A stretch of DNA of 64,000 bases from an uncultured bacterium (GTDB lineage: Bacteria; Armatimonadota; Hebobacteria; CAYNSX01), in NCBI GenBank assembly GCA_964400165.1, contig CAYNSX010000004.1, forward strand, positions 5,380 through 69,379, written 5' to 3'. This document shows positions 2,852 to 18,898 of the stretch, piece by piece (the first letter of the stretch is position 1; every line of letters begins with the position of its first letter). The notes under the pieces were generated by a model. That model was not told the DNA's origin. It saw only the letters and a list, made by a program, of their open reading frames with translations, and did no database searches. The position numbers and the translations under genes were made by a program.

Positions 2852-3790
2852 ATGAGCCCGGCCGTTCAGGGCCGGGCGTCGTCGCGCCGGGCCTACGCCT
2901 CCCTCTGGATCGCCACGCTCGTCTGGGGCGCGTCGTTCCCGGTGGCGCGGTATTTGTTGCAGCCCGGCGCCGACGGGCAGGCGGCGATCTCGCCGTTGGT
3001 GCTCGCCGCGCTGCGGTTCAGCATCGCGTCGGCGCTGATGCTGATCCCGGCGGCGCGGGCGCTGCGGCGCACGCCGCTCGGCCGCGCCGACTGGTGGCAC
3101 TTGGTGCTGCTCGGGCAGGTCGGCGTCTCGATCTATTTCTGGCTGCAATATGTCGGCGTCCAGAAGACGAATGCGGGCATCTCGTCCATCGTCATCCTCG
3201 GGCTGATTCCCGTCTTCACAGCGGTCGCCGCCTGGCTGCTGCGCTACGAGCGGTTTTCGTGGATGCAGGTCGTCGCGCTCGGCATCGGCATCGGCGGCGT
3301 CTGGGTGCTGGGGCAATCGCAGAACGGCGCGGTCGCTTGGCGCGGCAACGACATGACCATCGGCCTCGTCGCGCTCGTCGCCAACGCGGCCTGCTTCGCC
3401 ATCTATGCGCTGCTGGCGCGGCGGCTGGTGCAACGCGTGCCGACGCTGACGGTGACCGCGGTGTCGATGACGAGCGGCGCGCTGGCGCTGCTGTTGGTCA
3501 CGCTCGCCAACCCCGGCGCGTGGAACGCCGTCGCGCGCTTGCACACCGGACACTGGCTGGCGGTGTTCTATCTGGCGCTGGTCTGTTCGGTGGCGGCGTA
3601 TTACCTCTTCAACTTCGCGCTCACCGTCGTGCCCGCGAGCCGCGCCGCGTTCCTGGCGCTGTTCGAGCCGGTGGTCGCCGTCGCGCTCGGCTCGGCCTTC
3701 CTCGGCGAGCGGCTGACGCTGCTGATGCTAGGCGGCGCGGCGCTGATTGCGCTCTCGGTGGCGTTGGTGCTAAGGCGGGGAAGTGCGTAG
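2852..3790 (+). CDS. EamA/DMT-family drug/metabolite transporter
   Basis: 312 aa with about 10 predicted TM helices and two EamA-like halves (..LWIATLVWGASFPVARYLL.. / ..AVFYLALVCSVAAYYLFNFAL..). It is the track ORF in the correct frame. Confidence 0.7.
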   Translation: MSPAVQGRASSRRAYASLWIATLVWGASFPVARYLLQPGADGQAAISPLVLAALRFSIASALMLIPAARALRRTPLGRADWWHLVLLGQVGVSIYFWLQYVGVQKTNAGISSIVILGLIPVFTAVAAWLLRYERFSWMQVVALGIGIGGVWVLGQSQNGAVAWRGNDMTIGLVALVANAACFAIYALLARRLVQRVPTLTVTAVSMTSGALALLLVTLANPGAWNAVARLHTGHWLAVFYLALVCSVAAYYLFNFALTVVPASRAAFLALFEPVVAVALGSAFLGERLTLLMLGGAALIALSVALVLRRGSA

Positions 3791-4259: not shown

Positions 4260-4345
4260 GCCCAGGTGGCGAAATGGTAGACGCGCTAGCTTGAGGGGCT
4301 AGTGGGCGCAAGCCCGTGGGAGTTCAAATCTCCCCCTGGGCACCA
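4260..4345 (+). tRNA. tRNA-Leu (anticodon GAG)
   Basis: Folded by hand: acceptor GCCCAGG/CCTGGGC, D arm GCGA-AATGGTAG-ACGC, anticodon stem CTAGC/GCTAG with loop TTGAGGG (anticodon GAG), a long variable arm GGGCGCAAGCCCGT as expected for type II tRNA-Leu, T arm GGGAG-TTCAAAT-CTCCC, discriminator A, then an encoded CCA. Confidence 0.85.
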
Positions 4346-16244: not shown

Positions 16245-16312
16245 GACCAGGAAGGCGGGAACGCAGGGAGGCAGTGACTGCCTTCCTGCCTTCCCGCCTC
16301 CCCGGTTCCTAG
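16245..16312. repeat. family-A palindromic repeat element abutting the stop codon of the peroxiredoxin gene
   Basis: GACCAGGAAGGCGGGAACGCAGGGAGGCAGTG-ACTGCCTTCCTGCCTTCCCGCCTCCCCGGTTCCTAG is a near-perfect palindrome. The TAG stop of the upstream gene lies at its edge. Confidence 0.5.
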
Positions 16313-16914
16313 TTTTTGCCCTGCAGTTCCGCGAGCTTCTTTGCCAGGTCGGCGCCGTGCGTCTTCACACTCACCTTCAGATCGATGTAGCGGACAACGC
16401 CGTCCGGGTCAATGATGAAGGTGCCGCGCTTGGACATGAATTGGACATCGAAGCCGCGCGCTTTCATTTGGGCTTGCTGGTCAGCCGTCAGCATCTGCAG
16501 CATCCCGTAGGACTTCGAGATCTTGCCGTCGGCGTCTACCAGCAGCGGAAACTGGAAGTTGTTCTTCTCGGCGAACTCCTTGTGCGTCTCCTTGCCCTGC
16601 GCGCTGATGATGAAAATGGAAGCGTTGAGTGCTTTCAGATTGGCTTGCTCATCACGGAGCGAGCACCCCTGCAGCGTTCAGCCCCCCGTATTGTCGAGGA
16701 CATAGAACGAGAGGATGACCCAGTCCTTCCCCTTGTGGTCGGCGAGGCGCTGTCGCTTGTCGTTCTGATCGGTGGTGTCGAAGAGGGGGGCCTTGTCGCC
16801 CGCCTTCAGTTGCGGTTCGTCCACTGTCGGTCCTTCCGCGGCGGTCACGCGCGGCGCCGCCAGCATCACGGCGACCAGCGCGCACACGCCCAGCATCCGA
16901 ATGGCTTGTCGCAT
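16309..16914 (-). CDS. secreted BCP/PrxQ-type peroxiredoxin with in-frame TGA (candidate selenocysteine) at the peroxidatic-Cys position; 201 codons if read through
   Basis: Track ORFs 16678..17013 and 16309..16503 lie in the same frame and are separated only by a TGA at 16678-16680. The read-through product ..WVILSFYVLDNTGG[TGA]TLQGCSLRDEQ..GTFIIDPDGVVRYI.. aligns with E. coli Bcp ..[23 protein letters not shown].., so the TGA sits on CP and the resolving Cys is kept. An N-terminal signal peptide (MRQAIRMLGVCALVAVMLAAPRVTA) is present. Confidence 0.6.
16643..16664 (-). ncRNA. candidate bacterial SECIS hairpin 14 nt downstream of the in-frame UGA
   Basis: mRNA UGA-ACGCUGCAGGGGU-[GCUcGCUC-CGUGAU-GAGCaAGC]: an 8-position stem with one C.A mismatch and a 6-nt apical loop containing GU at +26/+27 relative to the U of UGA. 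The spacing is close to the 11-nt-spacer / apical G,U rule known from E. coli fdhF. Confidence 0.35.
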
Positions 16915-16945
16915 TGCGCTCTCCAATTCTCCAGCCCCGCGTATC

Positions 16946-17392
16946 TTACTCGGTTTTGGAAGTGCTCTCCCCCGGCCAGTGCAGCGGCATCGTCGGGCGG
17001 TCGAGCATCTCACGCACCTTCACCGGCGCGTCGGGCGCCGGATGCAGGCGCGGCAGGTCGCCCGGAGCCGCCGGGTCGCGCCCGAAGGCGGCGACGAAGC
17101 GGTCGAGGTCGCGCCGCAGCCGCGCCAAGTCGATGCCGCGGTAGCGCGGCGGCAGTTGGTCGAGTTTCTCGATGCAGTGTTCGTGCAGCCCGCGCACGCC
17201 GGCGAGATTGCCCCGGCTCCAGTGATAGACCGTCACCGCCGCCTGAATCAGCGCGTGATAGAAAGTGCGCTCGTCGCCGTGCACCTGCTTCCACAACGCT
17301 TCCAGCACCTCGTGACACTGGAAGTAGTCGCCCTCGTTGAACAGGGCGATGCCGCGCAGGAAGTCGGGGTGCAGCGCCGGGTCAGGCGGCAT
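16946..17392 (-). CDS. DUF309-family protein
   Basis: ..LRGIALFNEGDYFQCHEVLEALWKQVHGDERTFYHALIQAAVTVYHWSRGNLAGVRGL.. is the DUF309 signature. The start is M70 of the track ORF; it overlaps the upstream peroxiredoxin stop by about 11 nt. Confidence 0.55.
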   Translation of the reverse strand: MPPDPALHPDFLRGIALFNEGDYFQCHEVLEALWKQVHGDERTFYHALIQAAVTVYHWSRGNLAGVRGLHEHCIEKLDQLPPRYRGIDLARLRRDLDRFVAAFGRDPAAPGDLPRLHPAPDAPVKVREMLDRPTMPLHWPGESTSKTE

Positions 17393-17873
17393 TCCTCGCC
17401 GCGGCGAGCACCTCGTCGAACGGCGGCAGTTCGCGGATGTTCTCCCGCACATCGGCATACACGATTTTTCCGTCGCGGCCGATGACGAAAGTGGCCCGCT
17501 CCGAAAACCCCTGCGGGCGGAGGACGCCGTACAGTTCCGCCGCCTTGCCGTGCGGCCAGAAATCGGAGGCGACCGGATAGGGCAGCCCGGCCGGCGCAAT
17601 CGCCTTCACCCAGGCCTTCTTCGCCGGCATGCTGTCCACGCTGATGGAAACGACCTGCGCGCCGGCCTGGGCGTAGCGCTGCCATTCTTTCCCGACCGTG
17701 CACACCTCCGTCTCGCAAACGGCGGTGAACGCCAGCGGGTGAAACATCAAGATGACCGGCCCGTTCTTCAGGGACTCGCTCAACTTGACGGTGACATCCT
17801 TGACCTCCGGCTGCGAGACGAAGCCGGGCAGTTCGAAGTCGGGTGCGGTATCGCCTGCCTTCAGTGGTGGCAT
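17382..17873 (-). CDS. peroxiredoxin (AhpC/TSA / Prx5-like, Cys-type)
   Basis: MPPLKAGDTAPDFELPG..GPVILMFHPLAFTAVCETEVCTV..ATFVIGRDGKIVYADV.. carries the T-x-x-C peroxidatic motif. Confidence 0.8.
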   Translation of the reverse strand: MPPLKAGDTAPDFELPGFVSQPEVKDVTVKLSESLKNGPVILMFHPLAFTAVCETEVCTVGKEWQRYAQAGAQVVSISVDSMPAKKAWVKAIAPAGLPYPVASDFWPHGKAAELYGVLRPQGFSERATFVIGRDGKIVYADVRENIRELPPFDEVLAAARNAA

Positions 17874-17929
17874 CGTTGGGTCTCCTTCATTTCATGCAAA
17901 TGGGATCGCTCTCAACTCCTGGACGCTTG

Positions 17930-18150
17930 TTCTCCCCTCTCCCGAGTCGGGAGAGGGACTTCGCGTCTACCACTTGTTTAATCCTCTCCCCTCTCCGCTC
18001 GTCGGAGAGGGGCTGGGGGTGAGGGCTTTGTCCCCCTCACCCGGCCTGCGGCCACCCTCTCCCGTTTGGGAGAGGGACTACTCATCTACCATTCGTATTC
18101 AATGCCCCCTCTCCTCACAGGAGAAGGGGTCAGGGGGCTTGCCCTTCGTA
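17930..18150. repeat. tandem array of four family-B hairpin units (CCTCTCCC-N5-6-GGGAGAGGG ACT...TCTACCA)
   Basis: Hairpins TCTCCCgagtcGGGAGA, CTCTCCgctcgtcGGAGAG, CTCTCCCgtttGGGAGAG and CTCTCCtcacaGGAGAAG recur about every 55 bp between the aquaporin stop and the peroxiredoxin start. A related pair occurs at 23104-23235. Confidence 0.5.
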
Positions 18151-18175
18151 GCCTTGGCGTAGAAGGGTGAGGCCG

Positions 18176-18898
18176 TCACGCGGCGTCGGGCCGCTTCTGC
18201 AAAAGCAGCGCATACACCCACGCCGCCATCGCGCCGCCCCCCAGTGGCCCCGCCCAATACACCCAGTGGTTGGCCCAATCCATCTGCACCAGCGCCGGCC
18301 CGAACGAGCGCGCCGGATTCATCGAGGCGCCGGTCAGCGGCCCGGCGGCCAGAATATCGAGCACGATGGTCCCGCCGATGGCCAGCCCCGCGGCGCCGGC
18401 GGGCGCGCGCCCGTCCACGGCGACACCGAAAATGACAAACACCAGCAGGAAAGTCAGCACCGCCTCGATGCCTACGCCGGTCGCCGGCGTGATGTTCGAG
18501 GCCAGCATCGTCGCGCCGAGGTGCGTGTCCGTCGTCGCATCCAGCGGGTAGAGCAGCGAGATGAGCAGCGCACCCAGTGACGCCCCCGCCAATTGCACGA
18601 AGACATAGCCGAGTGCCTTCCCGAGTCCGATGCGCCCCGCCAACAGCATCCCGAAAGTCACTGCTGGATTGATGTGCGCCCCGCTGATATGGCCGGTGGC
18701 GTAGACCATCACCATAATGGCGAAGCCGTGCGCCAGTGCGATGCCGACGAGCCCCAATTGCAGCCCGGTCAGCACCACTCCGAACTGCTCCATTGACCTC
18801 GCGGTCGTCGAGTTCATCGCAATGGCGCCGATGCCGATAAAGCACAGCGTGAAAGTGGCGATGAACTCGGCGATGTACGGCTGCGCCCCGCGTCCCAT
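18176..18898 (-). CDS. aqpZ: aquaporin (MIP family, AqpZ/GlpF-like)
   Basis: Two NPA boxes (..SGAHINPAVTFG.. and ..GASMNPARSFGPA..) and six TM helices. Confidence 0.85.
   Translation of the reverse strand: MGRGAQPYIAEFIATFTLCFIGIGAIAMNSTTARSMEQFGVVLTGLQLGLVGIALAHGFAIMVMVYATGHISGAHINPAVTFGMLLAGRIGLGKALGYVFVQLAGASLGALLISLLYPLDATTDTHLGATMLASNITPATGVGIEAVLTFLLVFVIFGVAVDGRAPAGAAGLAIGGTIVLDILAAGPLTGASMNPARSFGPALVQMDWANHWVYWAGPLGGGAMAAWVYALLLQKRPDAA

What the first reader, a model, noticed from the sequence alone, without database searches (positions are those of the whole stretch)
16643..16664. Candidate SECIS hairpin at the correct distance downstream of the UGA
The mRNA reads UGA, 13 nt, then GCUcGCUC-CGUGAU-GAGCaAGC. 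This folds into an 8-position stem with one mismatch and a GU-containing apical loop at +25 to +30 from the U of UGA. Bacterial SECIS elements need an apical stem-loop about 11-15 nt after UGA with exposed G and U in the loop; this hairpin is close to that geometry. It lies in coding sequence, as bacterial SECIS elements do.
Basis: partly seen in the sequence, partly recalled or inferred. Interest (0 to 1): 0.6.

Follow-up and report, generated by a model that had tools for sequence, protein, structure and literature searches.

The report
SECIS hairpin of a selenocysteine peroxiredoxin
The hairpin is real and is very probably the RNA signal that makes the ribosome read an in-frame UGA as selenocysteine in a BCP/PrxQ-type peroxiredoxin gene; this is an ordinary feature of a selenoprotein family catalogued since 2005, although databases hold this gene only as a truncated fragment.

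Summary
On the minus strand, UGA (16680-16678) is followed by 13 nt and then GCUCGCUC-CGUGAU-GAGCAAGC (16664-16643). The UGA replaces the peroxidatic Cys of an AhpC/TSA (BCP/PrxQ-type) peroxiredoxin gene (16309-16914).

On its own the hairpin is not significant. Its fold z-score is -0.71, and 16-17% of random TGAs in this 66% GC window have an equally good SECIS-like hairpin.

The comparative evidence is strong. A structure-agnostic metagenome scan returned 120 Sec-BCP genes. Excess RNA structure beyond coding constraints occurs only just after the UGA, and 85 of 109 genes have a hairpin with its loop at +20 to +30. All 15 genes sharing the window's R-D-E motif use the same register, with compensatory codon changes (covariation 0.548 against 0.187 shuffled, 0/500). 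Only 2 of 15 Cys homologues have such a hairpin. A covariance model built without the window gene finds this hairpin as the only significant hit in 64 kb (E = 2.5e-5).

The hairpin meets all four criteria of the published bacterial SECIS model. Sec machinery could not be checked.

The parts
16309..16914 (-). Sec-containing BCP/PrxQ-type peroxiredoxin gene: 201 codons plus stop, N-terminal signal-peptide-like segment, active-site motif DNTGG-U-TLQGC-SLRD.
   Evidence: Translation. Pfam PF00578 at 1.2e-32. NCBIfam places it nearest PrxQ/BCP. dN/dS against orthologue L001 is 0.43 upstream and 0.40 downstream of the UGA. It is the only in-frame TGA in the window with a coding signature on both sides.
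16678..16680 (-). In-frame UGA, codon 79: the inferred selenocysteine codon, replacing the peroxidatic Cys.
   Evidence: It aligns with a nearly invariant Cys in homologues. The TGA is conserved in orthologues from at least 5 other samples (L001-L003, L146-L148). 120 further Sec-BCP genes carry TGA at the same site.
16665..16677 (-). 13-nt spacer between the UGA and the base of the hairpin (ACGCUGCAGGGGU).
   Evidence: Read directly from the sequence.
16657..16664 (-). 5' arm GCUCGCUC (+17..+24). It encodes part of Cys-Ser-Leu. The conserved core is +19..+24 (16662..16657).
   Evidence: Core helix supported.
16651..16656 (-). Apical loop CGUGAU (+25..+30), which is the Arg-Asp codons; G at loop position 2 is followed by U.
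   Evidence: The same loop position and the CG[U/G]GA[U/C] consensus occur in all 15 R-D-E-type Sec-BCP genes. The Arg codon in this register is CGU in 19, CGG in 12 and CGC in 1.
16643..16650 (-). 3' arm GAGCAAGC (+31..+38). It encodes Glu-Gln-Ala(1-2). The conserved core is +31..+36 (16650..16645). A35 faces C20 as a C.A mismatch.
16626..16680 (-). Possible extended lower stem (pairs +10-13/+42-45, +6-8/+48-50 and UGA itself with +53-55). It is predicted in this gene and in its closest relatives only.
   Evidence: MFE folds. It is not formed in orthologue L001, so its status is doubtful.

Best explanation
The hairpin at 16643-16664 (minus strand) is the bacterial SECIS element of a selenocysteine-containing BCP/PrxQ-type peroxiredoxin gene. 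The proposed mechanism is as follows. While the ribosome translates towards UGA79, the Sec-specific elongation factor SelB, carrying GTP and Sec-tRNA(Sec), binds the upper stem and apical loop through the exposed G-U at loop positions 2-3. The loop lies 21 nt 3' of the UGA, and this tether delivers Sec-tRNA(Sec) to the A site, so UGA is read as Sec and not as stop. The product is a full-length, probably exported, peroxiredoxin with Sec as its peroxidatic residue and Cys84 as the likely resolving residue. Shown here: the gene, the UGA/Cys correspondence, the hairpin, its fit to the SECIS model, its conservation with compensatory changes, its specificity to Sec forms, and its position-specificity. 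Inferred from established knowledge of the bacterial Sec pathway: SelB binding, actual Sec insertion, and the presence of selA/selB/selC/selD in this genome.
For: (1) The UGA aligns with the peroxidatic Cys of an AhpC/TSA protein. The frame downstream is under the same purifying selection as upstream (dN/dS 0.40 against 0.43). The TGA and hairpin recur in independent samples. (2) All four criteria of the published bSECIS model are met, and this is the only hairpin after the UGA that meets them. (3) A metagenome scan that did not constrain the arm or loop sequences gave 120 Sec-BCP genes. Across 109 unique genes, synonymous-codon permutation shows excess structure only at +7..+47 after the UGA: mean Z is -1.27 with 39% below -1.64, against -0.10 to -0.36 and 5-12% at eight other positions. 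85 of 109 genes have a hairpin of at least 5 bp with its loop centre at +20..+30. Chimeric 5'/3' halves are less stable (p = 6.8e-12 and 5.8e-9). (4) All 15 genes selected only for the amino acids R-D-E form at least 6 pairs in the window's register, with reverse-complementary codon pairs GAA/UUC, GUA/UAC, GGC/GCC, AAA/UUU and UCG/CGA. 81.7% of cells pair against 62.0% shuffled; covariation is 0.548 against 0.187 (0/500); 22 cells carry double changes against 6.6; slid registers give 13-45% paired. RNAalifold predicts the same 6-bp core de novo, with 4 of 6 pairs compensatory. (5) In Cys homologues only 2 of 15 have such a hairpin and mean Z is -0.01 (Fisher p = 1.7e-6). With one strict scanner, 49.5% of Sec genes pass, against 13% of Cys genes, 1-13% at other anchors and 17% of random TGAs. 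(6) A covariance model built from 13 other genes, excluding the window and its orthologue, finds this hairpin as the only significant hit in the window (24.4 bits, E = 2.5e-5; next best 13.7 bits). A sequence-only model gives 9.9 bits. In 533 kb of loci, all 14 hits lie just after Sec-BCP UGAs and none fall in Cys controls.
Against: The hairpin alone is not statistically distinguishable from background. Its stand-alone energy of -7.6 kcal/mol only just passes the -7.5 threshold, and the stem has a C.A mismatch. The repeat GCUC-GCUC in the 5' arm allows a competing register in a short local fold. No tRNA-Sec, selA, selB or selD lies in the 64-kb window or next to 60 other Sec-BCP loci, so Sec decoding in this organism is unverified. 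No Rfam family matches. The 15-sequence covariation set comes from perhaps 5-6 lineages, so the events are fewer than the cells counted. The Cys control set is small (n = 15). There are no experimental data.
Confidence: 0.85

Rival explanations
1. The hairpin is a by-product of the encoded amino acids (C-S-L-R-D-E-Q-A) and of the GC-rich composition. It has no role in recoding, and any real SECIS is elsewhere or absent.
For: For this gene alone the synonymous-permutation Z is only -0.59, because most pairs are fixed by the amino acids. 16-17% of random TGAs in the window have an equally good hairpin. The shuffle z-score is -0.71.
Against: The residues 3' of R-D are not conserved as protein, yet they covary as reverse complements of the residues 5' of it. 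Cys homologues with the same motifs lack the hairpin; this includes a Cys paralogue in the same contig as a Sec form (L090). Excess structure is confined to the post-UGA position. No other hairpin after the UGA fits the SECIS model.
Confidence: 0.06
2. The TGA is a genuine stop: the gene is a pseudogene, or yields a truncated 78-residue product, as current gene calls imply. In that case the hairpin is irrelevant.
For: Public collections hold only the 78-aa fragment for this gene. TGA is a common ordinary stop in this window (30 of 66 long ORFs). No Sec machinery was seen in the window.
Against: The TGA lies exactly at the peroxidatic Cys position. The frame continues for 122 codons of conserved Prx sequence with dN/dS of 0.40. 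The TGA is conserved in orthologues of 70-93% identity from several samples and in at least 120 other BCP genes. A 78-residue fragment would lack most of the thioredoxin fold.
Confidence: 0.03
3. A SECIS is present, but the functional conformer differs from the one described. It is either the shifted register that pairs the first GCUC repeat (+17-20) with GAGC (+31-34) around a UCCGU loop, or the long 55-nt structure that includes the UGA in a lower stem.
For: The 30-nt local fold prefers the shifted register (-9.6 kcal/mol). The 60-nt MFE folds of the window, L147 and L148 extend the stem down to the UGA.
Against: The shifted register puts no G in the first two loop positions and cannot form in orthologue L001. 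The lower stem is also absent in L001. Comparative analysis supports only the core +19-24/+31-36 with loop +25-30.
Confidence: 0.06

Closest known systems
Bacterial SECIS consensus model (bSECISearch; Zhang and Gladyshev 2005, as summarised in PMC13188914 Fig. 2A and PMC10778597)
   Same: A stem-loop inside the coding region immediately 3' of the Sec-UGA. The loop is 6 nt (allowed 3-9), the upper stem has 7 pairs (allowed 4-16), G at loop position 2 is followed by U, the loop starts 21 nt after the UGA (allowed 16-37), and the energy is -7.6 kcal/mol (threshold -7.5).
   Different: Nothing defining differs. The energy passes only marginally, the stem carries a C.A mismatch, and loop positions N1/N2 (C and A) cannot pair as they do in most modelled loops.
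E. coli fdhF SECIS (the experimentally characterised SelB-binding hairpin; details from my own knowledge of Huttenhofer 1996, Liu 1998 and Fourmy 2002)
   Same: A short apical hairpin a fixed distance 3' of the UGA, with an exposed G-U dinucleotide in the loop, lying within the reading frame.
   Different: fdhF has a GGUC tetraloop at +22..+25 (G23, U24), a bulged U17 and an 11-nt spacer. Here there is a CGUGAU hexaloop at +25..+30 (G26, U27), no bulged U (a C.A mismatch instead) and a 13-nt spacer. There is no sequence similarity, and no Rfam model matches.
Peroxiredoxin (Prx) selenoprotein family: TxxU motif, PF00578 / COG1225 (PMC1088965, PMC1794560, PMC13188914)
   Same: An AhpC/TSA fold with the T-x-x-U active site (T76-G-G-U79), widespread Cys homologues, and abundance in environmental metagenomes.
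   Different: This lineage carries a signal-peptide-like N-terminus, an insertion (QQAQM..RGFDVQFMSK) and the motif VLDNTGGU in place of the usual YPKxxTPGU. It has no close relative among 185,579 species-representative genomes.
PrxU of Eubacterium (Peptoclostridium) acidaminophilum, the biochemically characterised Sec-peroxiredoxin (NCBIfam NF040737)
   Same: A peroxiredoxin with Sec as the peroxidatic residue.
   Different: It belongs to a different Prx subfamily. The window protein scores 51.9 bits against PrxU, compared with 83.6 bits against PrxQ and 80.4 bits against BCP models, all below their curated cut-offs.

Membership tests
Bacterial SECIS element (bSECIS consensus model) | Apical loop of 3-9 nt on an upper stem of 4-16 bp | tested here: met
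   The loop is 6 nt. The stem is 4 bp, then a C.A mismatch, then 3 bp.
Bacterial SECIS element (bSECIS consensus model) | G in one of the first two loop positions, usually followed by G or U | tested here: met
   In the loop C-G-U-G-A-U, G is at position 2 and is followed by U. 52 of 54 passing Sec-BCP hairpins share this feature.
Bacterial SECIS element (bSECIS consensus model) | [quoted passage not shown] | tested here: met
   The distance is 21 nt. Family-wide, the modes are 17 nt and 21 nt.
Bacterial SECIS element (bSECIS consensus model) | MFE of -7.5 kcal/mol or lower | tested here: met
   -7.6 kcal/mol for the 22-nt hairpin, which is marginal; -11.8 to -17.8 kcal/mol with flanks.
Bacterial SECIS element (bSECIS consensus model) | Structure conserved with compensatory changes in Sec-containing orthologues and absent from Cys homologues | tested here: met
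   covariation; Cys controls; leave-out covariance model.
Bacterial SECIS element (bSECIS consensus model) | Bound by SelB and required for UGA-to-Sec recoding | not testable with these tools
   This needs binding or reporter assays.
Bacterial SECIS element (bSECIS consensus model) | The host genome encodes the Sec-decoding trait (selA, selB, selC, selD) | tested here: inconclusive
   None is present in the 64-kb window.
E. coli fdhF-type SECIS | GGUC-type tetraloop with G23/U24, bulged U17 and an 11-nt spacer (own knowledge) | tested here: not met
   This hairpin has a hexaloop at +25..+30, no bulged U and a 13-nt spacer. It may work like the fdhF element, but it is not a sequence homologue of it.
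Any Rfam RNA family | Match at the gathering threshold, or any plausible sub-threshold match | tested here: not met
   Only tRNA-Leu is found in the window. The local permissive scan gives only chance snoRNA hits with E above 5.
Prx selenoprotein family (TxxU, PF00578/COG1225) | AhpC/TSA domain spanning both sides of the UGA | tested here: met
   PF00578 covers residues 39-177 at E = 1.2e-32.
Prx selenoprotein family (TxxU, PF00578/COG1225) | T-x-x-U motif with U aligned to the peroxidatic Cys of Cys homologues | tested here: met
   T76-G-G-U79 aligns with T-[GP]-G-C in 21 homologues.
Prx selenoprotein family (TxxU, PF00578/COG1225) | TGA conserved in orthologues, with the downstream frame under purifying selection | tested here: met

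The most novel reading that the evidence does not exclude
Within the Sec-BCP family the SECIS occupies two discrete registers laid over the conserved F/L-R-D codons. One is a GUU triloop 17 nt after the UGA, whose stem uses the resolving-Cys or Arg codon and a CGC Arg codon. The other is a CG[U/G]GAY hexa- to octaloop 21 nt after the UGA, as in this window. Which register a gene uses tracks the amino acids around the resolving Cys, and in the second register the otherwise unconserved residues after R-D are dictated by RNA complementarity (E/F, V/Y, K/F, G/A, S/R codon pairs). If this two-register 'sliding SECIS' and its imprint on protein sequence have not been described, they would make a neat case study of RNA-protein co-constraint and a useful family-specific SECIS model for annotation.
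Probability: 0.3. Interest if true: 0.35.

Novelty: new member of a known kind. Interest (0 to 1): 0.22.

Why it matters
It confirms that the in-frame TGA at 16678-16680 should be annotated as selenocysteine, giving one 201-residue exported peroxiredoxin in place of the 78-residue fragment now held in public collections. It also implies that this uncultured, GC-rich lineage has the Sec-decoding trait. Sec-BCP peroxiredoxins and in-frame bacterial SECIS hairpins are both well established, so the finding mainly has annotation value. The family-wide data set assembled here (more than 100 Sec-BCP genes, two SECIS registers, clear codon covariation) could seed a curated covariance model, since Rfam currently has nothing that matches.

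Tried and rejected
- Rfam at gathering threshold on the whole window, and a permissive scan on 16500-16800, found nothing relevant.
- ARAGORN found no tRNA-Sec in the window or in 60 Sec-BCP loci.
- The genome-contig scan with a two-sequence alignment used poorly chosen peptides (MRQAIRML, GDKAPLFD).
- Two viral-contig scans for Cys-type controls yielded only 3 usable loci each, and these overlapped.
- Counting only consecutive pairs in a fixed register was too crude, because many hairpins have bulges or mismatches. I replaced it with energy-based tests and a scanner that tolerates a mismatch.
- The single-gene synonymous-permutation test was uninformative for the window gene, because the amino acids fix most pairs.
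- Attempts to recover the NCBI source record or organism name failed, so the taxon remains unknown.
- Searches for papers specifically on 'bacterioferritin comigratory protein' selenoproteins found nothing useful.
- An alternative genetic code (UGA as a sense codon) is rejected, because TGA ends 30 of 66 long ORFs and this is the only coding-flanked in-frame TGA in the window.

Full report
**Observation**

The feature lies on the minus strand. Window 16309-16914 is a 201-codon reading frame with one in-frame TGA at 16680..16678, which is codon 79. The mRNA reads UGA, then 13 nt (ACGCUGCAGGGGU), then GCUCGCUC (16664..16657), CGUGAU (16656..16651) and GAGCAAGC (16650..16643).

The hairpin is part of the MFE and centroid structure of the 60 nt that start at the UGA (-17.8 kcal/mol). 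On its own it is worth -7.6 kcal/mol.

As an isolated object it is not more than chance would give:
- The fold z-score is -0.71, and 47 of 200 shuffles fold as well.
- 16-17% of the 1509 TGA triplets in this 66% GC window are followed by a hairpin that passes the bacterial SECIS model at least as well.

**The gene**

With Cys substituted for the stop, the product is an AhpC/TSA protein (PF00578, E = 1.2e-32, covering residues 39-177 on both sides of the TGA). NCBIfam places it nearest PrxQ and BCP thiol peroxidases, and further from the characterised Sec-peroxiredoxin PrxU.

In an alignment with 21 full-length homologues, the TGA falls on the nearly invariant peroxidatic Cys: T-G-G-U-T-L-Q-G-C against T-[GP]-G-C-T-x-x-x-C.

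The closest relative (L001-L003, 70-73% identity, three samples) has the same synteny of aquaporin, Cys-Prx, DUF309 and split Prx, and it keeps the TGA. Three further samples (L146-L148, up to about 93-100% identity) also keep both the TGA and the hairpin. This excludes a sequencing error.

dN/dS between the window and L001 is 0.43 upstream and 0.40 downstream of the TGA. TGA is an ordinary stop elsewhere in the window, and this is the only in-frame TGA flanked on both sides by coding-like sequence. The TGA is therefore best read as selenocysteine.

**Family-wide test of the hairpin**

The 5' arm and loop encode the conserved S-L-R-D-E motif, so conservation alone proves little. To address this I scanned metagenome contigs with a pattern that fixes only protein features (F-Y-x4-T-[GPAR]-G-TGA-T-x6-R-[DE]) and leaves the arm and loop sequences unconstrained.

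Across 109 unique genes:
- *Synonymous-codon permutation.* Keeping each protein and each gene's codon usage fixed, excess RNA structure appears only in the 40 nt beginning 7 nt after the UGA. There, mean Z is -1.27, 39% of genes fall below -1.64, and mean energy is -12.0 against -9.1 kcal/mol. At eight other positions in the same genes, mean Z is -0.10 to -0.36 and 5-12% fall below -1.64.
- *Hairpin position.* 85 of 109 genes have a hairpin of at least 5 bp with its loop centre at +20..+30. The distribution is bimodal, at +22 (GUU triloop, 49 genes) and +28 (CGNGAY-type loops, 30 genes, including the window).
- *Chimeras.* Joining the 5' part of one gene to the 3' part of another loses 2-3 kcal/mol (p = 6.8e-12 and 5.8e-9).
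- *bSECIS scanner.* With one strict scanner, 49.5% of Sec genes pass, against 1-13% at other anchors in the same genes, 13% of Cys controls and 17% of random TGAs in the window. Spacings cluster at 17 and 21 nt, and 52 of 54 loops carry G followed by G or U.

**The window's own register**

I selected genes only by the amino acids R-D-E, which fixes just the two closing pairs. This gave 15 genes from perhaps five or six lineages. All 15 form at least six pairs in exactly the window's register.

The codon before Phe/Leu and the codon after Glu vary as reverse complements: GAA/UUC, AAA/UUU, GUA/UAC, GGC/GCC and UCG/CGA. In other words, amino acids that are otherwise unconserved covary to keep the helix.

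| Measure | Observed | Control |
|---|---|---|
| Cells forming a standard pair | 81.7% | 62.0% shuffled (0/500 reach it) |
| Covariation score | 0.548 | 0.187 +/- 0.036 shuffled (0/500) |
| Cells with changes on both sides | 22 | 6.6 shuffled |
| Pairs with compensatory changes | 5 of 8 | - |
| Cells paired in slid registers | - | 13-45% |

RNAalifold, given no structure, predicts the same core (+19-24 with +31-36, loop +25-30), with 4 of 6 pairs compensatory.

**Controls with Cys homologues**

I assembled fifteen Cys-type BCP genes anchored on the homologous TGY codon. Only 2 of 15 have such a hairpin, mean permutation Z is -0.01, and mean energy is -8.4 kcal/mol (Fisher p = 1.7e-6 against 85 of 109). 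One contig (L090) carries both a Sec and a Cys paralogue with the same C-G-F-R-D motif, and only the Sec copy has the strong hairpin.

**Leave-out covariance model**

I built a model from 13 R-D-E-type hairpins, excluding the window and its orthologue. In 64 kb on both strands it finds 16639-16668(-) as the only significant hit (24.4 bits, E = 2.5e-5; next best 13.7 bits, E = 0.087).

A sequence-only model from the same alignment gives 9.9 bits (E = 0.06), so about 14 bits come from base pairing.

In 533 kb of fetched loci, all 14 hits lie just after Sec-BCP UGAs. Six of them were not in the training set, and no Cys control is hit.

**Comparison with what is known**

The published bacterial SECIS model requires a 3-9 nt loop on a 4-16 bp stem, a G in the first two loop positions (mostly followed by G or U), 16-37 nt between the UGA and the loop, and an MFE of -7.5 kcal/mol or lower (PMC13188914; spacing also in PMC10778597).

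The window hairpin meets all four, the energy only marginally, and it is the only hairpin after the UGA that does.

It is not a sequence relative of the E. coli fdhF SECIS, which has a GGUC loop with G23/U24, a bulged U17 and an 11-nt spacer (my own knowledge). No Rfam family matches.

Sec-containing peroxiredoxins with the TxxU motif are an established and abundant selenoprotein family (PMC1794560). In the Sargasso Sea survey they were assigned to COG1225, which is the Bcp COG, and were the second most abundant family (PMC1088965).

**What remains unshown**

The window has no tRNA-Sec, selA, selB or selD, and the rest of the genome could not be retrieved. Sec decoding in this organism is therefore inferred.

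A competing local register exists, because the 5' arm contains the repeat GCUC-GCUC. The long lower stem that includes the UGA is not conserved in L001. SelB binding and Sec insertion are inferences from the established bacterial pathway.

**Verdict**

This is a new member of a known kind: the SECIS of a BCP-type Sec-peroxiredoxin from an uncultured lineage. Its main value is in correcting the annotation, since public collections hold the gene only as a 78-residue fragment. Interest is low.

Noticed in passing
L013, about 3001-3276 (Planctomycetota MAG CBDCXR010000004.1): A TlpA/ResA-like thioredoxin-fold ORF has an in-frame stop inside its redox motif (..TTYRASW*PFCKTQ.., that is W-U-P-F-C). 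It is probably a Sec-containing 'Prx-like thiol:disulfide oxidoreductase' with a UxxC motif.
   Followed up: no
window 16309-18898 (minus strand); L001 7917-10339; L148: A conserved four-gene cluster: aquaporin (MIP, 18176-18898), Cys-peroxiredoxin (17382-17873), DUF309 protein (about 16946-17599, overlapping the Prx end), and the signal-peptide-bearing Sec-peroxiredoxin. This looks like a peroxide-handling module with one cytoplasmic and one exported Prx.
   Followed up: partly
window 16663-16665 against L001 9962-9964: The putative resolving Cys sits at U+5 in the window (U-TLQG-C) but at U+4 in the 70%-identical orthologue (U-TLQ-C-N). That is a one-residue shift within an otherwise conserved active-site segment.
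   Followed up: no
window 16678-16914 (minus strand): Public protein collections hold this gene only as a 78-residue N-terminal fragment ending at the TGA (cluster of 3, sources NCBI, Logan and JGI). The C-terminal part is not on record, so the selenoprotein is unannotated.
   Followed up: yes
L014-L133 (Sec-BCP loci), +17..+38 after each UGA: The family uses two SECIS registers, and Arg-codon choice follows the register. CGC (41 of 50) is used where the Arg codon pairs in the stem (GUU-loop register). CGU or CGG (31 of 32) is used where it opens the loop (the window's register).
   Followed up: partly
window 16661/16646 (C20.A35) and L123: The window gene and the unrelated gene L123 share a C.A mismatch at the same helix position (pair 20-35), followed by three more outer pairs. 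The orthologue L001 has C-G there. Whether the mismatch matters (compare the bulged U of fdhF) is unknown.
   Followed up: no
L090 (Ga0070741_10000092): One contig carries both a Sec-BCP and a Cys-BCP paralogue with nearly the same active-site peptide (TPGU-TREACGFRD and TPGC-TKEACGFRD). This gives a natural within-genome control pair.
   Followed up: partly
window 4260-4345 (+): The only RNA gene detected in the 64 kb is tRNA-Leu (GAG).
   Followed up: yes
window 16250-16300 (minus strand, just 3' of the Sec-Prx stop codon): A GC-rich inverted repeat (GGAAGGCAGUCACUGCCUCCC) follows the stop codon directly and may be a transcription terminator for the cluster. This was read from the sequence and not scanned formally.
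   Followed up: no
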